Assembly: GCF_011386835.1 (NCBI RefSeq) | Contig: NC_088797.1 | Span: 29,574,001 to 29,638,000 of the forward strand | From: Chrysemys picta bellii | Lineage: Eukaryota | Reading direction: 5' to 3' | DNA: 64,000 nt | In this document: positions 1,952 to 64,000 of the stretch, piece by piece | Layout of the letters: each line of letters opens with the position of its first letter | How positions within the stretch are numbered: the stretch's first letter is position 1 | Translations under genes and position numbers: made by a program | Notes under the pieces: generated by a model | Databases searched by the model: none | What the model was told of the DNA's origin: nothing | What the model saw: the letters and a program-made list of their open reading frames with translations, nothing else

Positions 1952-2035
1952 CGATCAAGAATGGGTCCTGTATGAATAGGGGGCCTTGGAGAGATGGTAG
2001 GAAACCCCAGGACCGGGCATTAACTCTCAACAACT

Positions 2036-3640
2036 AGCCGCCAAGGACACAGAACTTGTGAATATGGCAGAGTGGCAGCTGGGGTCAAAGGAGGTGCCAG
2101 GGGCAGGGCCACCCGGGGGGAGGGGCCAGGGGTGGCTCTAAGCAACAGCAAAGCAAGCAGGTGCTTGGGGCAGCCCATTTGCAGGGGTGGCAGCCAGCAG
2201 GGATCCAGCCTGAGAGCTGAGAACCAACAGGGGGCCCTGGGAGCTGTAGTTCCTTGGTTAGCTCCCTGCCTATAGAGCCAGCCCTGGAGCAAGGAAATAA
2301 CTACATTTCCCAGCATTCCCTTGGCTGCTATCAACAGGAAAGGGAGGGGGAGGGAGTATGGTAGCTGAAACCTCATGTTGCAGCTTGCTGTGAATGGAGA
2401 GCTTACTGCTAGAGCAGGGTGGCACTGTGAATGGGGAACAAGTGTGCCCAAGGAGTAGAAGGCTTTGGCCCAGATATCCCCTTCAGAAGACATCCCCAGA
2501 GTGGATTAGGGATACTGGTGTGACTTCACCTTGCAGCCCCCAAAGAAAGAATGGCTGGACTAAATGGACAGTGCCTCTCTCTATCTGAAGCCTAGCAAGG
2601 GAGGTATGTGGATCCCACTAGAATTTAAAATTAAAAGTAAGGGAGGGGAGGCTCTGGACCTGGGCAGCTTTAGATACAGAACCAGGCACGTAGGAGGATT
2701 TCCACTTCTGAGCCATGGAAGCAGAAATTGACTTTTTTTCCTTTCCAGATTTGGCTAATATTCAGCAAGGGAATCTAGCACCTGCCTTCCAGATTTGAAC
2801 ACCTCAAAATTCAGGAGTGTTCAAGCTCAATTCGGGCAGCTGTTACTTCATTTCCCCCAAATCAAATATACTGATCCACTGTAACTTGCTGTAGAAAAAG
2901 TAGGATAAAATTGAGCAAGAAATGCTTCCCAGTGGTTTTTAGGACTGGAATTGCTATTTTCAACAGCCATTGCTTTTTTTTGTTTGTTTAAAAGGAAGAC
3001 AGTGATATTGCATTGGCAAATTCCCCATAGAAACAAAGAGTGGAACAAAAGAATAATAAAGGCACCTCAACTTTTCCCCATTTATGGAGGACAGTCTTAT
3101 AATATGCATCCAGATACCCTCCAATCACACAAGCTGAAAATTGTTCCACTTTACTGCAGTTCTGTAACCATATAGGAACCAACCCTGTCTGTTCTATGCA
3201 CATCCAAAATTCCTGCTGAATGACCCACTCTGGGAGCAAGTTACCAGTGACCCAGGGCTGGGGCGGAAGGAGGGTGCGGGGGGGGGGGGGGAGAGCCCAG
3301 GGCTGGGGCGGCAGGGGGGTATATGGGTGAGGGGAGGCCCAGGGCTGGGGCAGCAGGGGGTGCAGGTGTGGGAGGGAGAGCCCAGGGCTGCGGCAGCAGG
3401 AGGGTGTGCGGGGGAGCCCAGGGCTGGGGTGGGGGCAGCCAAAATTTTTTTTGCTTGTGACGGCAAAAAACCTAGAGCCAGCCCTGGGGTCGGGGGGGGG
3501 GGGGCAAGTGGGGAAATTTGCCCCAGGCTTCGCAGGGGCCCCCACGAGAATATAGTATTCTATAGTATTGCAACTTTTTTTTTATGGAAGGGGCCCCCAA
3601 AATTGCTTTGCCCCAGGCCCCCTGAATCCTCTGGGCGGCA
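2036..3640. mobile_element. Probable non-autonomous DNA-transposon-derived interspersed repeat (boundaries uncertain)
   Basis: AT-richer core followed by a G-rich CCCAGGGCTGGGG repeat block. It ends in GGCCCCCTGAATCCTCTGGGCGGC, which resembles a hAT-MITE terminus. No clean TSD found. Confidence 0.35.
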
Positions 3641-4524
3641 GGGGACAGCATTAAGGACTCGGCTGCTCAGGACAAAGAGTCAGGGACCCAGATAGAGAGT
3701 TGGGGTCCAGGAGGCCTAGGGAAGTGAGGCTGGTGATGGACTCTGAATTCAGTATTGCCTTCCCTCTATTCACCTAAGGGCCCTTTGGTGCTGGATTCCA
3801 GCTGACTAACAATCCCCAACTTGCTCTGAAAAGCCTGCCCCATCTCACAGCAGATCCTCCCTGATGGCATTGCTCCCTGACAAGCAGAAATCTCTGCCAG
3901 TGATCCGAACCCATCAGAACTCGCTGGGAGTGCCAGTGAGAAACAGGGGAGCTGGAGCCTGAGGGCCCAGTCCTTGAACGATGGAGCCACGGGGCTCACC
4001 CTGGCAAAAAGTTGAGTCCAGGGTCTGGCATGTTAAAGGGGGCACTCCCAGAAGAGACTATACAAAGGCTGAGGCATGGGACCCCGTTGGGCTGTATCTA
4101 TTGCACACGGCATCTCCCACACCCATCACTGTGGCATCCTGGCACCTACCCGGTCGGGCATTAAGCAACCTAACTAAGGTCTGTCCTCATTCTCTCTCCC
4201 ACCCTGCCCCAGGGTGTGCAATGCAATGCAGTGAGGGGGGCCTGTAGGGAAGGGTTCTGGTTATACCAAATCTGCGCTCCCTGTGTGTTTCCAGCAGAGA
4301 ATGCTGCTTGGAACCTGTCACAGGAGCTGGCTGGGATGGTCCCTGGTTGGGGGAGGGGGAGGGTGTTGTGCTCCCTCACCAGAGGAAGTTCTCTTTCCCC
4401 CGACACCAGAGGAATCACATTGAGCATGGGGAGAGGGGTGAGTTGTGACAATGTGGGGTGGGGACAGGGACTCTCAGCTTCATACTAGCTGCCTCATACA
4501 GGCACCATCTCCAGTTCCTCCAAG

Positions 4525-4800
4525 GTTCTGTTCCTGGCTGGGAAAGAGGAGTGGGGTTTAGTGGTTAAAGCTGGGAGCCAGGACTCTTGGGTTCTGTCCC
4601 TGGCTGGGGGACGGGAGTGGGGTTTAGTGGTTAAAGCTGGGAGCCAGGACTCTTGGGTTCTGTCCCTGGCTGGGGGACGGGAGTGGGGTTTAGTGGTTAA
4701 AGCTGGGAGCCAGGACTCTTGGGTTCTGTCCCTGGCTGGGGGATGGGAGTGGGGGTTTAGTGATTAGGGCTGGGAGCCAGGACTCCTGGATTCTGTCCCT
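4525..4800 (+). repeat. Tandem minisatellite, 66-bp unit, about 4 copies (GGGAGCCAGGACTCYTGGGTTCT family)
   Basis: GTGGTTAAAGCTGGGAGCCAGGACTCTTGGGTTCTGTCCCTGGCTGGGGG recurs at 4561, 4627 and 4693. The ORF track shows a 22-aa periodicity. Confidence 0.95.
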
Positions 4801-4849
4801 GTCCATCCATATCTGTTTTGTGTCCAAGATGGCTGATGGGGTCACTCAG

Positions 4850-5390
4850 CTATGCTCTTCTTGAAATCTTGTCCTCCCTTGGCTCCGGTGACTGTGTCTT
4901 CTCCTGGTTCTCCTCCTACCTCTCTAATCATTCCTAGTGTGTCCCTTGAAGGATTTTCCTTTCTGTGGGTGTTTCACAGGGCTCTGCCCTTGGCCCCCGT
5001 CTCTTCTCCCTCTTCCCCTTAGTTCTGGGTAATCTCATCCTCGAACACAAATTCAACTACCATCTCTATGCTGCTGACTCACAGATCTATCTCTCTGCTC
5101 CAGACCCATCCCCTCCTGTCCACACTGAAATTTCTGCCTGTCTCTGCCATCACCTCGTGGCTGTCTGTCGGTCGGCTCAAACACAACATGGCTAAACCAG
5201 AGCTCAGAATCTCCCCCTCCCTCCTACCGCCTTTCTCAGTCACTGTGGACACCACCCCCATCCTGCCTGTCACTCAGGCCCCTAACCTGGGCATCATCTT
5301 CATCTCAGACCTCTCTCTAGGTGCTCACATCTAGGCTGTGGCTAAATCTCCCCAGTTCTTTCTTCATAACATCTCTAAAGTTCAGCCTTT
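4850..5390 (+). mobile_element. Degenerate L2 LINE RT fragment
   Basis: Translation [15 protein letters not shown]...[17 protein letters not shown] corresponds to the RT PQGSxLGP and YADD regions in L2-type context. Frameshifts are present. Confidence 0.85.
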
Positions 5391-8369: not shown

Positions 8370-8975
8370 CTAGTCCTCGGGCGAGCAGGCCAGGTGCAGC
8401 TGGTCCGGGCTGCCCACGCTGCCGGTGCTGGAGCTACCGTCGCCCAGGTCCCGGGGCCCGCAGGGCAGGCTGAGCTCCGAGGAGCCGACGGGGCTGTTGT
8501 CGGCGCGGGCGGCGCATTCCTCCTCCAGCGCCAGGCAGAGCGCCTTGAGCTCCAGGTTATCGGCGGCCAGGCGCTCCTGCAGCCCCTCCAGCCCGGCCAG
8601 CTTGTGCAGGCAGGAGGCCAGCTCGTCCCGCAGCACCCGGGCCGCCTGCTGCCCGAACAGCTGCCAGTCCCGGGCCAGCCGCTTGGCCTTCAGCCGGTCG
8701 TCGTCCAGGAAGCAGCAGAGGTCGCGGAGCTCGCGGTTCTCGGCCGCCAGGCGCTCGTTCACCTGCTTCAGCTCGCGGATCTCCCGCAGATGCTCCTGCA
8801 GCTGCCGATTGACGCCCTGGATCAGCCGCCCCCGCTGCACCAGCGCCGCCAGCTTCTCCGCCTCCTCCTGCCGCAGCCGCCGCACCAGCTCCTCCTTGCT
8901 GTAGCCGCCCAGCTCCGAGTCGCTCAGCTGGGCCAGGGCCCGGCTGGCCGCCGGCTCGCCGGCCTCGCTGCCCAT
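8370..8975 (-). CDS. CCDC85B: Coiled-coil domain-containing protein 85B (DIPA), 201 aa, single coding exon
   Basis: MGSEAGEP...KEELVRRLRQEEAEKLAALVQRGRLIQGVNRQLQEHLREIRELKQVNERLAAENRELRDLCCFLDDDR...CGPRDLGDGSSSTGSVGSPDQLHLACSPED* matches the CCDC85 family and the CCDC85B C-terminus. ATG at 8975 is in good Kozak context (GCGATGG). The gene is head-to-head with FIBP, as in human. Confidence 0.95.
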   Translation of the reverse strand: MGSEAGEPAASRALAQLSDSELGGYSKEELVRRLRQEEAEKLAALVQRGRLIQGVNRQLQEHLREIRELKQVNERLAAENRELRDLCCFLDDDRLKAKRLARDWQLFGQQAARVLRDELASCLHKLAGLEGLQERLAADNLELKALCLALEEECAARADNSPVGSSELSLPCGPRDLGDGSSSTGSVGSPDQLHLACSPED

Positions 8976-57600: not shown

Positions 57601-60158
57601 CACCTCCTGCAGGGGGTGACAGGGAGCCAGAGAGCCGAGGGGTGCCCCACACATCGCCCCACGGTGGGGGCGTCTACGTGGGCTGGGCTAAGTGCTAACA
57701 TGGTCACTGCTGCAGGGGGAGGAACCTGTGAGGGCTGTGCCACTCTCCACTGAGTGTGGGAGGGACTGCATGCCGTGCCACTCTCTGTGGTACTGTGGTG
57801 GGGGGAGGGTTGCACCAGCTGTGCCACTTGCTGCAGTCAGGGTGGGGGGTGAGCTGTGCAGGCCAGGTTACTCTCCGCACTGGGGCTTGGGGGGTGGGGG
57901 GGTGGGTGTGGGTGTGTGTATGACAGAGCCCTGTTGGTGATTTGCTACTCTGTCAGCCACTTCTATCAGGCCCGACACACTCACTACACCTAACACACTG
58001 GTATCATGAGATATCACTGGAAAACTAACTCCCTGCTCATTAATATTCCAGTGTGATGTAGGGCCCAGGTGTGTACAAGGAGTTGGAAGTAAGCACTAGA
58101 ATGATGTTCTTCAGATGGGTTTGGCAAGCAGTGCATAAGGCCAGTCTGCCCTAGGCAAAGGAATGTGTATTTGCTCGGCTGACCGGTCATCAGGCAGAAA
58201 CAGCGAAGAAACCTCTGCGTACAAAGGTGAACAAAACCAGCAGCCTAGCGGGTTGGGGAGAGGCCTCTTAACTATACAGACAGGGGATCTGAACCACAAA
58301 TGATAAGCAACAATGAACTGCTTGTAGATAGTATTCCTGTATTATAAAAGTATAACGAGGAAGGATTCAAGTGGCCAGAGCACTTGAAATCCCAGGCCAC
58401 TGGGTCCTCCAGCCAAGCGGTTGAAGTACCCGGGAACTGAGTTTAGGTGAGGACCCTGCTCAGGCAAGGGTTGTAACTCGCTGAAGTGAAGTGTCAGTCA
58501 TAGAAGCACAGGTGTAACCATTTATCTTCACTCCTCTTACAGGTACCCTTTAAACCTCCGCCTTTGCCTTCACTAAATGTGTTTTACTATCCACCAGTTC
58601 GGTGCTGGGACTGCCATAAGAGCGTTTGTCAAACCCCAGTGAAGTCAGTGAGCGGCCCTGGATTGTCCCTCTGAAGGAACAACGAACTTCCTTACTTCAG
58701 TGAGTGTTGCAGGAGAGGGCTGGACAGTGCAGGACTGTCTGGGGGAAAGTCGGGACGGGAGGAGAGGGTGTTGGGGTCACTGGGGGTGGAAGGCAGGGTG
58801 TGACCTGCATGGTGGTAGCCTGGCTGTTGGTGTCAGGACTGTGAACCACAGCAGCAGAGCACCGAAGGCACCCAGAGCTGCAGGACAGGCATTAGTCCTG
58901 ATTGTCACTTGGAGATCTGTGCAGGGCCCATAGATTTCTGGGGAGATGGGATCTGATAGAGGCACACATGCTTTCCCTGCTCCCCAGGGGGGTTCACTCC
59001 CCCACCCCTGCATGCAGTGGGTCCTGGCTCACCTTCAGCCCTGACACCCCGGTGATGAGCGCCTCGTCAGCTGACTTGACGATGTTCCGGAAGAAGCCAC
59101 CCAGCAGCTCCTTGCGGTTCTTGCCACGCACACTGAGCTGCAAGGAAAGGGAGTGCCAGGTGTGGGGGGTGGGGAGAGGGCCCCCCAGGACCCTCTGCAC
59201 CTCACATCCCTCCCAGCCCAGCACAGGGGCTGCCCACAGCCAGAGATAATATGAGCATTAGGGGAGGGATCTGTGCAGGCCAGGGTTGGAAGGGAGAGGG
59301 GGACAGGGCAGTGGGGGAAGAAGGAGGTGGCCCCCTCACCTCCCTGGCTCCTTCCAGGCCCTGTGCTCCTCACGTTGTGGGGGGCAATTCCCCACATGGC
59401 CCCCCCTTGTTGGTGGGAGGTGGGGGAGACGGGAATGGCCTCAAATTGGGTACCAGGGGCCTGTGCCAGGGAGACAAGCAGCTCAGCAGGGGTGCGGGGG
59501 TTGCAGCTCAGCAGTGGAGAAGGAGTAGTGGGGGGTGGCTCATTGGGGAGGAGGTGGGGGGTTCAGCAGGGGAGAGGAGCGCTGGGGGGCCAGGGGCAGG
59601 TGTTTCAGGAGGCCAGCAGGATCAGAGGGAGGCTCAGGTGGGTGGGGGGGTCAGGGAGCTCACTCAGGGGTGGGGTGCTGGGGGGCTCACGTCTTGGTCG
59701 TATTCCAGGAAGACATAGAAGTTGTGGTCCCGGCGTAGGACGGGATGGGCTGCCAGGCGCTGCAGGAACACCTCGTGCATTGCCACCGTCTTTTTGAAGA
59801 TGGCCAGGTACTCGCTGCGGGAGACAGGCGGGTGAACATCTGCAGGGACCGTGTCTCGGTACTGACTCCCTGGACCACCCCCACTGCCTCCCTGTACTGC
59901 CCCCCCTGCAGTGCCCCCTACTAACCCCTCTGTATCACCTTTCGCGGATTGCCTGTACTGCCTCCATGGCACAGCACCCCCTAGTGCCACACTGGGGCAT
60001 TGAGGTCAGCCCCCACCCTCCCCTGGTGTCACTCACCCCTCCAGCTCCTGCTTCATCTTGGCGAACTCCTCCCGCGTCAGGGTGCTGTTCCCCTCCCCAA
60101 GGCGCTGCAGCTTCTCCCGTGATGCCTCGAAGTCAGGCCTGGGGGGTGCAGGGGGGAT
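54634..60158 (-). CDS. SNX32: Sorting nexin-32 (SNX5/6 PX-BAR family), last 10 coding exons, 319 aa; N-terminal exons not found in the window
   Basis: Exons (minus) 60158-60037, 59814-59691, 59137-59033, 57606-57501, 57091-57016, 56390-56351, 55918-55832, 55691-55532, 55412-55327, 54687-54634, total 960 nt with phases consistent. [23 protein letters not shown]...[24 protein letters not shown]...[16 protein letters not shown]...LIVLKGDA*. Tail-to-tail with CFL1, as in human. Confidence 0.93.
58057..58699 (+). mobile_element. Solo LTR (ERV/Gypsy type), 643 bp, in a SNX32 intron
   Basis: TGTAG...CTTCA termini, a 4-bp TSD GTGA (58053-58056 and 58700-58703), TATAAAAG at 58343-58350, and an abrupt drop in GC relative to the flanks. 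Confidence 0.75.
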
Positions 60159-61012
60159 CTGGGCCGGGGTTGGTGGGGGAAGAACCAGGAGAAATATTAG
60201 CTCTGAACCCCTCCTTCAGCCTCTCAAACCTCTGTGATCCCATGGCCCCCTGATACTAGCTGTGGGGCAGGCTGGGGGAAAAGGGAGGAGCAGGGCAGGC
60301 CACGGGTGAAGGTGGAGCTGATGGGGGCTCATGGTTGAGGCATGGGGGTGAAAGGGCAGAGCTAAGGGGGCCTCACAGTTGGGAGAGGGGAGTGAAGCTG
60401 GCAGGGGGCTAATGGTTGGGACAAGGGAGGCTGGGAGGTGGAGCTGGAGGGGCTGAGAAAGGATTCACAGCCAGAAGCTATGGGGCGGGGGGAGGTCTCA
60501 GAGCAGGAAGGCAAAGGGCTCAGATGTCCTGTTGGGGGATGATGCCTCGGGCTAGGGCAGGGCCATTGGGGGGTTCCATTAGGGGCAGGATGTCAATGAT
60601 TAAAGGATCCCCCTCCTCTAGAAACACTCTTCCTTCTCCACACACCCCTGCCTCCCTTACAGTGATCCTGTGTCTCCTCCTGCACCCCAAGCTCCATGCG
60701 CTTACAATTCACAGATTCACTGATCGGGAGCCCACTGTGATCATCTAATCCTCCTGGATAACACAGGCCATAGGACTGCCTGGAATTAACTCCTGGTTGA
60801 GTATGAGCATTGACAGCTAATAGCAACAATGATGTTCCGTTTCATACAGTTCCACAGAGGGGCAACCATTGCATTGAAATGCTTCAGGGTTGATAAGCAT
60901 CATGATGAAGTGATCTCTAATAGGTAAGTGGTGGCGATTTCCAAGGAGTACTCTACATTGGATGGCCAGCTGTCTAGTGCAGGGGAAGAGTGGACTCTTT
61001 TTAGGATGCTAT

Positions 61013-61210
61013 TGTAAACCATACACCTCCTGGGTGTGGTGTTCTGTCCCATCTAGTGGCACCAAGACCACGTAGAGAGAGAGAGATTAGTGAGTTTTCT
61101 CCACAGCCTCAGCTAAGAGCCATGTGGCTTTTAGCTCATGCAGTAAAGACTCATGCACTAAGCTTCAGAGGTCCCAGGTTTGAAGACGACCAGCGTCTGT
61201 CGGTGTTACA
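61013..61210 (+). mobile_element. 198-bp solo LTR containing a tRNA-like sequence (Helenus-type TRIM candidate)
   Basis: TGT...ACA ends and a 4-bp TSD CTAT (61009-61012 and 61211-61214). A-box-like TAGCTCATGCAGTAAAG (61132-61148) and T-arm/B-box-like GAGGTCCCAGGTTTGAA (about 61168-61184). Confidence 0.75.
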
Positions 61211-62189
61211 CTATCACCGAGATTGCTGGAGAACCACTTGGACTAAGGAGAATGAAAAAGCAACCCGGATTACAGATGATACCATCAAATTTTGGGACAG
61301 AAAAAAAAAGGTGCTGTGCAGAATGGATGCACTGGAAGGTTAGAGTCAAGTCAGTGAAGGGAGGAGGAAATGGGCAATAGAGGGAAACAAATGTCTTGAC
61401 TGAGGAGTCAAGAGAACCTGTCGGAATGATCATAATCAATGGTGGAACAGTTTCGCACAGCACATTGAGGAAGCTTCTGAAAGACGTGACCAGAAAGGTG
61501 TATTTGAGATTTTGATGTTCCTCACTGGATGTCCATTCTCTCAGCTTCTGAGCGTTAAGGACAAAAATGGAGAATACTGCCAGGATATCGGTGCACCACT
61601 TAAAAGTTGGTGGGAGCATTTTTGTGAATTGATTCACTGCCAAGATGTAAACTACAACTTAATTAAAAAATGAACCCAGGAGAAAATGGGCAGGTGACCT
61701 TAGAGGAAATGATGCTTGCGGTCAAACAGTTATGACATGATAAAACACCTGGTTTTGACCATATTTCATTAGAACTGCTAAAGAGTGGAGACCTGGATTG
61801 AATTCAGTTGTCTGAATAGTTTGGGAACCCGGTCACATTCCAGAAGACTGGAAAGGAGGCTGAATCCTCCCTTTTTTCAAAAAAGAGTGATCAGCTTGCT
61901 CAAATTGCCGGGGAATAACACTGCTGTCAGTCCCAGGGAAGGTGTTTACCATCACGTTACTGAGCCAGCTGAAATACTGTCTCACCCCAAACATGAGAGC
62001 CAACCCTTGTGGTTTCTGCCCAGGTTGAACTACAATCCAGCTATCTGTGCTCTGTGAAATGTTACTGAAAAACAACAAAAGGACGTTAACACCACATTTA
62101 AAGACTCTCCAGCTGCTTTTGACTCCACTGTGAACACTTCTGTGCCAGGATGGGGTGCCTGAAGACTTGGGGTGAAAGATCCACACTCC

Positions 62190-62432
62190 TGAGAGAAGTA
62201 GCTATGGCAACCTACCCCCCAGTGTAGCCAGCACTAGGTCATAGAATCATAGGGTTAGAAAGAACCACATGGGCCATCTAGACTAACCTCCTGCCTAGAT
62301 GCAGGGTTTGAATTCTTCTTCAACCTAGCTACTGCATCTCAGGGAGGTGGATTACCTATGCCAATAAGAGAAGTCCTCTCGTCAATATAGGACGTGATGC
62401 CACTGTAGCAATTTAAGTGCAGACATACCCTT
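62190..62432. mobile_element. Nested fragments: reverse CR1 3' tail (about 62238-62310) and a MITE-like piece ending GTGCAGACATACCC
   Basis: CATAGAATCATAG is the CR1 octamer tail in reverse. These pieces interrupt the RTE reading frame. Confidence 0.55.
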
Positions 62433-62951
62433 AGTGTGCCTGGTGGAGAAACTGTACCATGGTACATTTAGCTGCGTGAAGGTCAATGGTTGTATTACAG
62501 ACTGGTTTTCAGTAGAATCAGGGGTACACTAGGGATATGTTCTCTCACCTACATAATCTAATGTTCTGATAGACTATCTGACAATAAAACTGACTGTAGG
62601 AGAGGTGAAATTGAGAGATTCATCTTTAGATGATCTTTACCATGCTGATATTAATGCCTTACTTGGAGAGATTACTGGCCAACTACAGCTAATGCTGGGA
62701 GAGCTGTGAAAAACAGCAGAATCTCTGGGACTTAGGGTCAATGGTGATCAAACCAAAGCTATGCAGGCTTCCTACAAAACAGAAACGAATGACCTGCAAA
62801 TGATGCATGTAGACAGCAATGACATTGACTGGGTGAATAGGTTTATCTATCTGGGTAATCACTGGACAGTACGAGGCTCTATATCCAAAGAAGTCACACG
62901 TTGGATTGGTCTTGCATGCAAGGCATTTCGGTGTCTTCAAAGGCCTCTGGG

Positions 62952-63273
62952 CAGGGGTGCTGGAACAATTTGTATAGTGGGGGTCAGGGCAGGCGCAACC
63001 CATTAGGCAACCTAGGCGGTCACCTAGCGTGCTACAATTTGGGGGGCGGCAACCACGGCGGTATTTCGGCGGCGGGACCTTCCGCCGCCTCTGTGGGGGG
63101 TGGTATTTTGGGGCGGGACCTCCCGCCACCTACGGCGGCAGAAAAGCTGGTGGTGCTCCTGGTGGGGGTGCTGAGAGCCATTGAACCAAACTGTCAACCC
63201 TGTATAGAATGGAAACCACTTCAAGCCACGGGGTGCGGCAGCACCCCCAGCATCCCTAGTTCCAGCACCCATG
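62952..63273. mobile_element. hAT MITE inserted in the RTE
   Basis: TIRs CAGGGGTGCTGGAAC / GTTCCAGCACCCATG (1 mismatch). Perfect TSD CCTCTGGG at 62944-62951 and 63274-63281. Confidence 0.92.
62985..63161. mobile_element. Second hAT-type MITE nested inside the 62952-63273 MITE
   Basis: CAGG...CCTG ends. Perfect TSD GTGGGGGT at 62977-62984 and 63162-63169. Confidence 0.85.
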
Positions 63274-63759
63274 CCTCTGGGTAGCAGGATGTCCATGTGA
63301 CAACTAAGATACAAGTGTTCAATGTGGTAGTGATGAGAACTCTGTTGTATGGAGCAGAAACATGGCCGTGAAAAACAGGCGAAGAGAGGAAACTAAACAG
63401 TTGTCAGTGTCAAAACATCCACTGGTTTGATTTTGTCACAAACAAAGAGATACTTAGATGACCCCGGCAAGTTGCAATCTTGCATCCGCTGAGAAGAAGA
63501 CTCTAGTGGTGTGGTCATCACATGGAGAAGAAGGTGTGCTTTTACAGAAGCTTAATAGACTTGAGGTCAAAGAAAGTAGAGCATGAGACCAACCACAAAT
63601 GAGGTTGGAAGATGCAATTTTGAAGGATCTAAGAAGCCTAAATCCTCCCATGCTGACTCTTGCTGAAGGAAAAAGACTTGCAAGGGACTATTCAGGTTGG
63701 AAGTTAATTTTATATGCACCACTGCTACATCACAGCCATGTGAATCTGCTGCTGCTGTG

Positions 63760-63960
63760 AATTAGAGCAGACTAGAAAAACACCCAGTCTTGACTGGAAA
63801 ATGTCCAGTGATGGAGAATCGACCCCAGCTCTTGGTAAATTGCTCCATTGGTTCATTCCCCCCACTGGTACAAATTTGCACCCTATTTCCAGTCTGAAGT
63901 TGTCTGGCTTCAACTTCCAGCCCATGGATCTTGTTAGACCTTTATTTGCAGACTAGGAGC
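63760..63960 (-). mobile_element. Old CR1 3' fragment
   Basis: Translation KLKPDNFRLEIGCKF...NQWSNLPRAGVDSPSLDIFQSRL is a CR1 ORF2 C-terminus. Confidence 0.85.
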
Positions 63961-64000
63961 AAGACACCAATTAACCGTCTTCTTGGTTAAACTAAGCAGA

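What the first reader, a model, noticed from the sequence alone, without database searches (positions are those of the whole stretch)
61009..61214. Miniature LTR carrying a tRNA-like Pol III promoter and a CTCF-like site
Seen: a 198-bp TGT...ACA element with a 4-bp TSD, cleanly interrupting the RTE frame. It has an internal A-box-like and T-arm/B-box-like segment resembling a tRNA, and CCACTAGATGGGAC on the minus strand (61046-61059), a 13 of 14 match to the CTCF core. Recalled from the literature and to be verified: Helenus-type TRIMs have tRNA-like LTRs and make 4-bp TSDs in animals. tRNA boxes (TFIIIC) and CTCF are both insulator signals, so the family could be a mobile composite insulator or a Pol III-driven LTR parasite. 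The B box is degraded in this copy.
Basis: partly seen in the sequence, partly recalled or inferred. Interest (0 to 1): 0.7.

Follow-up and report, generated by a model that had tools for sequence, protein, structure and literature searches.

The report
Turtle tRNA-bearing mini LTR retrotransposon
This 198-base insert is the leftover single end-repeat of an old, gene-less turtle jumping element whose repeats carry a tRNA look-alike that likely served as its RNA polymerase III promoter; it fits the Helenus kind described in 2024 from fish, molluscs, wasps and fungi, and the proposed CTCF-insulator role found no support.

Summary
Real. 61013-61210 is a solo LTR (TGTAA..TTACA, CTAT duplicated; 6 of 6 paralogous empty sites hold one CTAT) in a decayed LINE, inside an intron of a turtle sorting-nexin gene. 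The genome holds roughly 2,000-5,000 such LTRs and two-LTR forms of about 480 bp: a 74-bp interior, a tRNA-Pro primer site (15-17 of 18 in 30 of 30), a polypurine tract and 4-bp duplications. The LTR has tRNA-like A and B boxes 45 nt apart but no cloverleaf. All Helenus (TRIMp3) features testable by sequence are met, and Kojima's 2024 table lists no tetrapod. Pol III use and a Gypsy helper are inferred. The CTCF-like site has G at a near-invariant C in 88 of 93 copies, ranks 42nd of 42 in the window and is no better conserved than the rest. New lead: a palindrome centred just before the A box. By eye it recurs, with compensatory changes, in 17 of 18 vertebrate and 28 of 43 bivalve Helenus LTRs, and that paper does not mention it. 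This scan noted Helenus-type elements in other genomes before; none of the 8 notes shown names a turtle.

The parts
61009..61012 (+). left copy of the 4-bp target-site duplication (CTAT)
61013..61210 (+). solo LTR (198 bp) of a ~480-bp non-coding TRIM; TGTAA..TTACA ends
   Evidence: two-LTR relatives
61044..61062 (-). CTCF-like 19-mer (core 61046-61059); G instead of the near-invariant C at 61048; weak
   Evidence: (11.6 bits with a recalled matrix, rank 42 of 42 in the window)
61090..61154 (+). long inverted repeat: the upstream arm is an inverted copy of the first ~30 nt of the tRNA-like part
   Evidence: (z -3.6 on +, -4.1 on -)
61111..61136 (+). core palindrome (12 pairs, 2-nt centre at 61123-61124) overlapping the T run and the A box; same layout seen by eye in fish, coelacanth and bivalve Helenus LTRs
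   Evidence: (by eye)
61129..61132 (+). T4 run at the head of the tRNA-like part; candidate Pol III terminator in the 3' LTR (inferred)
   Evidence: present in 107 of 131 copies; another T4 elsewhere in the LTR in 10 of those 107
61132..61143 (+). A-box-like segment (TAGCTCA...)
61177..61187 (+). B-box-like segment, degraded here (C>T and a short deletion after it)
   Evidence: (loose ends at 61180/61183)
61211..61214 (+). right copy of the target-site duplication (CTAT)
60804..62950 (+). host: decayed non-LTR retrotransposon (RTE-like by recalled RT motifs; ends approximate)
   Evidence: Pfam gave no hit on five short fragments
59715..60140 (-). two exons of a PX-domain sorting nexin gene; an upstream exon lies beyond the window end, so the element is intronic and antisense
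   Evidence: PX hit; upstream exon in L237

Best explanation
It is the solo LTR of an old, non-coding miniature LTR retrotransposon of a turtle (Helenus type), which was likely transcribed by RNA polymerase III from the tRNA-like boxes in its LTR and likely copied and inserted by the proteins of a Gypsy element. Shown: the full element is LTR (~204 bp) + 74-bp interior + LTR, with a tRNA-Pro primer site two bases after the 5' LTR, a purine tract before the 3' LTR, and 4-bp duplications at a palindromic target; most copies are solo LTRs; this copy predates the split from a relative about 6% diverged. Inferred: LTR-LTR recombination left the solo copy. Inferred: Pol III starts inside the palindrome of the 5' LTR, makes a ~295-nt RNA and stops at or near the T run in the 3' LTR, giving a very short terminal redundancy as in Cassandra. 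Predicted: the palindrome's upstream arm, present only at the RNA's 3' end, pairs with the RNA's 5' end (or folds locally), which would help strand transfer or termination. The family now decays neutrally; this copy is most likely inert.
For: Two-LTR forms: 23 of 30 loci found with the interior have both LTRs, interior 73-74 bp in all 23, exact 4-bp TSD in 15 of 23. Solo copies with TG..CA ends: exact 4-bp TSD in 24 of 40, 3-bp in 1, 5- or 6-bp in 0. PBS matches the genome's own tRNA-Pro 3' end at 15-17 of 18 in 30 of 30; the best of 24 other own tRNA sequences averages 12.6. The tRNA-like part scores about 33 against own Cys and Phe tRNAs and about 30 against Ala, versus 17 +/- 3 for shuffles. 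The commonest B-box forms are GGTTCAATCC 33, GGTTCGATCC 24 and GGTTTGATCC 20 of 111 matched, as expected from CpG decay of an intact box. AATAAA in 0 of 131 LTRs. An intact Gypsy family in the genome shares PBS-Pro, TGTAA..GGTTACA ends, a similar purine tract and exact 4-bp TSDs in 5 of 7 copies; a SCAN-gag element shares the exact LTR-PBS junction. Predicted transcripts fold better than shuffles in 6 of 7 copies folded (z -1.6 to -2.9), and the ends pair as a panhandle in 6 of 7. Short U tracts terminate Pol III better next to a hairpin (bioRxiv 10.1101/2020.09.11.294140).
Against: No transcript, start site or Pol III occupancy was observed; the contigs laid cannot show them. The A box departs from the recalled consensus at two positions. 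A T4 about 15 nt after the presumed start could also stop Pol III in the 5' LTR. The T run lies inside the palindrome's 3' arm, so the hairpin cannot form fully before the polymerase reaches it, unlike the constructs in the cited preprint. In turtle copies both strands fold about equally well, so RNA hairpin and DNA cruciform cannot be told apart. The panhandle follows from the inverted repeat and from where I placed the ends. The intact Gypsy is far younger (LTRs 98-100% identical) than the TRIM (median K2P 0.197), so it is at best a relative of the helper. ERV1-like elements with PBS-Pro also exist in the genome.
Confidence: 0.8

Rival explanations
1. Ordinary Pol II-driven TRIM whose LTR merely carries a fossil tRNA/SINE fragment; the AT-rich box about 30 nt upstream would act as a TATA box.
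For: An AT-rich box (GATTAA, GTTAAA, GATAAAA variants) precedes the palindrome in most copies; no cloverleaf is detected; Pol III use is untested for all Helenus (Kojima 2024).
Against: A and B boxes keep tRNA spacing and the B box looks intact before CpG decay; no poly(A) signal in 131 LTRs, whereas the Gypsy LTR has one; the same head layout recurs in distant Helenus families.
Confidence: 0.1
2. Mobile composite insulator (CTCF + TFIIIC) kept or exapted by the host.
For: The motif scores p about 2e-5 with a recalled matrix, and 52 of 90 unselected LTRs pass p < 1e-4; a sister subfamily keeps the motif while nearby bases differ; the intact Gypsy LTR has a better CTCF-like site at a similar position (15.7 bits).
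Against: G at the near-invariant C in 88 of 93 anchored copies, C in 2; 41 sites in the window score as well or better; diversity among copies is 0.159 in the motif, 0.170 in the A box, 0.161 in the B box and 0.165 overall; this copy's B box is broken.
Confidence: 0.06
3. Non-autonomous derivative mobilised by an ERV1-type endogenous retrovirus rather than by Gypsy.
For: PBS-Pro and 4-bp TSDs are typical of ERV1 (recalled); an env-bearing ERV1-like family with PBS-Pro is present.
Against: The ERV1-like LTR examined (L132) starts TGTTG and ends TAACA, unlike TGTAA..TTACA; Gypsy families match ends, junction and TSD length; Kojima finds only Gypsy PBS regions similar to those of animal Helenus.
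Confidence: 0.08
4. An ordinary tRNA-derived SINE or a MITE.
For: tRNA-like segment; 5-bp terminal inverted repeat.
Against: Fixed TG..CA ends, fixed 4-bp TSD, no tail, and direct-repeat two-LTR forms with PBS and PPT.
Confidence: 0.01

Closest known systems
Helenus (TRIMp3), Kojima 2024, PMC10886601; nearest in layout: coelacanth LTR1_LCh/LTR2_Lch (199/197-bp LTR), zebrafish LTR-11_DR group, sturgeon/paddlefish and many bivalve families
   Same: Under 1 kb, non-coding, two LTRs with a tRNA-like part conserved at boxes A and B, PBS complementary to a tRNA 3' end, PPT, 4-bp TSD, solo LTRs; LTR ends TGTA..TACA; by eye the same palindromic head before the A box.
   Different: Host is a turtle (Table S1 lists only coelacanth and ray-finned fish among chordates); primer is tRNA-Pro, whereas the listed vertebrate families use His, Leu or Lys; the inverted arm is about 30 bp, longer than the roughly 10-14 bp seen by eye in the listed families; the family is old and decayed.
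Cassandra (plant TRIM with 5S-derived LTR)
   Same: Pol III-type internal promoter in the LTR; transcription reported to start in the 5' LTR and end in the same RNA-derived segment of the 3' LTR with an 18-nt redundancy (as summarised in PMC10886601); the T4 at the head here would give a similar short redundancy.
   Different: tRNA-type (A/B box), not 5S-type promoter; transcription is shown for Cassandra, not here.
Transposon-borne CTCF/TFIIIC insulators (e.g. rodent B2, MIR; recalled)
   Same: A tRNA-like promoter and a CTCF-like word in one short repeat.
   Different: Those are SINEs with binding data; here the motif carries the least tolerated base at a core position and shows no extra conservation.

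Membership tests
Helenus (TRIMp3) | TRIM: two LTRs, non-coding, under 1000 bp | tested here: met
   about 204+74+204 bp in 23 of 30 loci
Helenus (TRIMp3) | PBS complementary to a tRNA 3' end just after the 5' LTR | tested here: met
   15-17 of 18 to own tRNA-Pro in 30 of 30
Helenus (TRIMp3) | polypurine tract before the 3' LTR | tested here: met
   GGGGAAGTA or a close variant before the 3' LTR in the 23 two-LTR loci
Helenus (TRIMp3) | tRNA-like sequence in the LTR, conserved at box A (TRGCY..YGG) and box B (GGTTC) | tested here: met
   similarity to own Cys/Phe/Ala tRNAs about 30-33 versus 17 shuffled; A-to-B spacing 45 nt; B box 0-1 mismatch in 47 of 80; YGG mostly decayed to CAG, kept as CGG/TGG in some copies; isotype not resolved
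Helenus (TRIMp3) | 4-bp TSD in animals | tested here: met
   24 of 40 solo copies exact 4 bp, none 5 or 6 bp; 15 of 23 two-LTR copies
Helenus (TRIMp3) | does not encode a functional tRNA | tested here: met
   no ARAGORN call in the window; no Rfam tRNA match in the window stretch or in 19 loci
Helenus (TRIMp3) | transcription by RNA polymerase III (proposed, not validated, in the defining paper) | not testable with these tools
   only assembled contigs were available
Helenus (TRIMp3) | mobilised by Gypsy in animals (proposed) | tested here: inconclusive
   Gypsy families share PBS, ends and TSD length, but no age-matched helper was identified
CTCF/TFIIIC insulator repeat | strong CTCF motif | tested here: not met
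   11.6 of 27.9 bits with a recalled matrix; G at core C in 88 of 93
CTCF/TFIIIC insulator repeat | motif conserved above background among copies | tested here: not met
   diversity 0.159 versus 0.165
CTCF/TFIIIC insulator repeat | CTCF/TFIIIC occupancy and enhancer blocking | not testable with these tools
   needs ChIP and reporter assays
tRNA-derived SINE | tRNA head at the 5' end, tail, variable-length TSD, no LTR pair | tested here: not met
   tRNA part is internal; fixed 4-bp TSD; LTR pairs with PBS and PPT
LTR retrozyme / ribozyme-bearing TRIM | self-cleaving ribozyme in the LTR | tested here: inconclusive
   no hammerhead or twister match in Rfam scans of decayed copies; only about 35 nt follow the B box

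The most novel reading that the evidence does not exclude
The turtle family is the first tetrapod member of one ancient lineage of animal Helenus (bivalves, sturgeons, carps, coelacanth, turtle) defined by a palindrome built on the head of the tRNA-like promoter. Because the upstream arm is transcribed only in the 3' LTR, the same LTR acts as a Pol III start in the 5' copy and as a structure-assisted stop and end-to-end clamp in the 3' copy, which solves how a Pol III transcript with a terminal redundancy of about 15 nt can be reverse-transcribed.
Probability: 0.3. Interest if true: 0.65.

Novelty: new member of a known kind. Interest (0 to 1): 0.42.

Why it matters
It extends tRNA-promoter LTR parasites (Helenus/TRIMp3) to amniotes, as far as the defining paper's list and my searches go, with thousands of copies in a turtle genome that may be mistaken for SINEs or tRNA pseudogenes. 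The shared palindrome gives a concrete, testable handle on an open point about these elements, namely where Pol III starts and stops when both LTRs are identical, and hints that many animal families share one origin, where the defining paper favours several. The individual copy is an old intronic fossil.

Tried and rejected
ARAGORN on the window and Rfam on 59000-64000 and 19 copy loci gave no tRNA or ribozyme match over the elements. The automatic A-box count often picked the upstream arm of the palindrome instead of the tRNA-like box, so I do not use those counts. Isotype of the tRNA-like part unresolved: Cys, Phe and Ala score alike, and only 8 isotypes plus Pro were sampled. Exact PBS-Pro search (544 sites): none of the 30 loci fetched was this TRIM; they led to Gypsy and ERV1-like families. 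Pfam gave no hit on five short fragments of the host LINE. Summed contig depths were not used as copy numbers. Run X19 is filed as polyA RNA and holds a contig across the 3' junction, but a contig in an intron cannot show Pol III transcription. Folding both strands did not separate RNA from DNA structure. The Cassandra primary paper was not held. No look-alike in the scan's own notes by sequence. Repbase and Dfam could not be searched, so a deposited turtle family under another name is not excluded. No family consensus was made, so tRNAscan or Infernal on a consensus remains open.

Full report
Observation. Six pairs of hits to other copies of the host LINE overlap by exactly 4 bp, and the six paralogs printed each carry one CTAT, so this is a true insertion with a 4-bp duplication. 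The host is a decayed LINE with many stops and a one-base loss just left of the site; 'RTE' rests on recalled RT motifs, since Pfam did not hit five short fragments. It lies antisense in an intron of a PX-domain sorting nexin gene. The genome is a turtle's: a window gene is 98% identical to a turtle CCDC85B cluster and 86% to the next, squamate, hit.

Family. A search with the element gave 2198 candidates, of which 40 were scored. Of the 30 loci fetched, 30 start with TG, 26 end with CA and 19 have an exact 4-bp TSD. One locus, L014, held two LTRs around 73 bp. Searching with that interior gave 357 candidates; 23 of the 30 loci fetched have both LTRs, all with 73-74 bp between them, and 15 of the 23 have an exact 4-bp TSD. 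A junction pattern gave 69 exact sites; 29 of the 30 fetched were this TRIM. A 21-mer of the LTR occurs 861 times (reversed control 0) and is intact in 15 of 51 LTRs chosen by their interior, which gives about 2,900 LTRs (roughly 2,000-5,000), not counting a sister subfamily. Of 30 loci taken in order along contig 1, 23 had no interior next to the LTR and 7 had. Among 40 solo copies with TG..CA ends from 60 loci, exact duplications were 4 bp in 24, 3 bp in 1 and 5 or 6 bp in none, at a palindromic RTG-CWWG-CAC target. LTR pairs with an exact TSD differ by a median K2P of 0.197 (0.148 with CpG masked; n = 15). With a recalled turtle rate near 1e-9 per site per year this points to tens of millions to about 100 million years, a rough figure. 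The insertion is present at the same site in runs of organisms A, B and C (both junctions) and D (3' junction; 32 differences in 528 bases).

Replication signals. The interior starts two bases after the LTR with a site that matches the genome's own tRNA-Pro 3' end at 15-17 of 18 bases in 30 of 30 loci, against a best mean of 12.6 for 24 other own tRNA sequences, and ends in GGGGAAGTA. Other PBS-Pro elements in the genome include an intact Gypsy family (PNMA gag, RT, RNase H, integrase) with TGTAA..GGTTACA ends, a similar purine tract and exact 4-bp TSDs in 5 of 7 copies, two of which were not located properly; a SCAN-gag element with the same LTR-PBS junction; and an ERV1-like family with different ends. 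Gypsy is therefore the likely helper class, but no age-matched helper was found.

tRNA-like part. Eighty copies align with own Cys, Phe and Ala tRNAs at mean scores of about 30-33, against 17 +/- 3 for shuffles; the reverse strand scores 17-20. A and B boxes are 45 nt apart. The three commonest B-box forms are the CpG-decay set of GGTTCGATCC (77 of 111 matched, out of 168 copies). No cloverleaf is called. A T4 sits at the head in 107 of 131 copies, and only 10 of those have another T4 in the LTR; none of 131 has AATAAA. The lack of other T4 runs in about 280 bases is not significant on its own.

CTCF. That position is G in 88 and C in 2 of 93 anchored copies. Among 90 LTRs chosen by their interior, diversity is 0.159 in the motif and 0.165 overall, columns above 0.4 left out. 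In its favour: 52 of 90 pass p < 1e-4, the sister subfamily keeps the word, and the Gypsy LTR has a better one at a similar place. It may be a U3 factor site useful to the element; an insulator role is unsupported.

Palindrome. The region 61090-61154 folds as one long hairpin (z -3.6; the reverse strand -4.1). In 144 of 168 copies with an ungapped core, 11 of 12 pairs are mostly Watson-Crick; one position is G-T, C-T or T-T. The upstream arm is an inverted copy of the first ~30 nt of the tRNA-like part (score 24.1 versus 13.2 shuffled, 107 copies). Reading Kojima's Data S1 by eye (parts 5 and 6 of 11), I find the same layout, GCTA plus purines, a 1-2-nt centre, pyrimidines plus TTTAGC, in 17 of 18 vertebrate LTRs (one partial) and 28 of 43 bivalve LTRs, with double changes such as AGGCC/GGTCT in zebrafish versus TGGCT/AGCCA in goldfish and GCTA/TAGC versus GCCA/TGGC in bivalves, and many G-T wobbles on the sense strand. 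It was not evident in the fungal LTRs of part 1 (not counted). These counts are by eye and untested statistically; parts 2-4 and 7-10 were not read in full. The paper's main text has no 'palindrom', 'hairpin' or 'inverted'.

Mechanism. Shown: anatomy, primer, TSD, solo-LTR majority, age. Inferred: Pol III starts within the palindrome of the 5' LTR and ends at or near the T run of the 3' LTR (about 295 nt), leaving a short redundancy as reported for Cassandra. Predicted: the 3' end pairs with the 5' end (6 of 7 copies folded; one further copy had no anchor), aiding strand transfer, or a local hairpin strengthens the weak T4, as hairpins do for U4 in human cells. The geometry differs from those constructs because the T run is part of the stem, so this step is the weakest.

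Literature seen. PMC10886601: parts 1-5 of 6 of the main text, term searches of the whole main text, supplement parts 1, 5, 6 and 11 and two supplement searches; its Table S1 lists only coelacanth and ray-finned fish among chordates. PMC7215508: two passages. bioRxiv 10.1101/2020.09.11.294140: abstract and two sections. Search listings only showed no report of a turtle or amniote Helenus or of the palindrome; the library lacks most subscription journals, and Repbase and Dfam could not be checked. The scan's notes list Helenus-type elements in other genomes and nothing similar by sequence.

Verdict. A real solo LTR of a new turtle family of a known kind. The insulator idea is unsupported; the conserved palindrome is the part worth pursuing. 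Interest 0.42.

Noticed in passing
L014 5' LTR; L050 and L051; L143/L144/L176; L233: Five loci show inversions or inverted duplications of part of the element, several with a break in or beside the central palindrome, which suggests it promotes template switching or cruciform repair. Not counted systematically.
   Followed up: partly
L127-L131, L137, L138, L169-L175: Young Gypsy family with PNMA-type gag, a single 1850-codon frame or gag/pol overlap, LTRs of about 1.5 kb that are 98-100% identical, PBS-Pro, 4-bp TSD, and a CTCF-like site (15.7 bits, recalled matrix) about 30-50 bp from the LTR start.
   Followed up: partly
L181 / L217: Older element with a SCAN-domain gag (Gmr1-like by recall) that shares the TRIM's exact LTR-end/PBS junction; a candidate relative of the helper.
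   Followed up: partly
L132 and similar loci: ERV1-like families with PBS-Pro; one has an env-like frame (TLV_coat).
   Followed up: no
L218-L236: Sister subfamily with a different first 20 bp of U3 and no AG microsatellite, but the same palindrome, boxes and interior.
   Followed up: partly
window 61022-61038 and, in better copies, the last 35 bp of the LTR: Two further short palindromes, one at the start of U3 and one in U5.
   Followed up: no
window 8373-8975 (-), 27.8-29.2 kb (+), 33.8-35.2 kb (-), 59.7-60.1 kb (-): CCDC85B, and exons resembling EFEMP2, MUS81 and a sorting nexin (names recalled); this order matches the human SNX32-CFL1-MUS81-EFEMP2-FIBP-CCDC85B block (recalled), so the host gene is probably SNX32.
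   Followed up: partly
window 60731-60800: A separate high-copy repeat fragment just left of the host LINE (depth peak).
   Followed up: no
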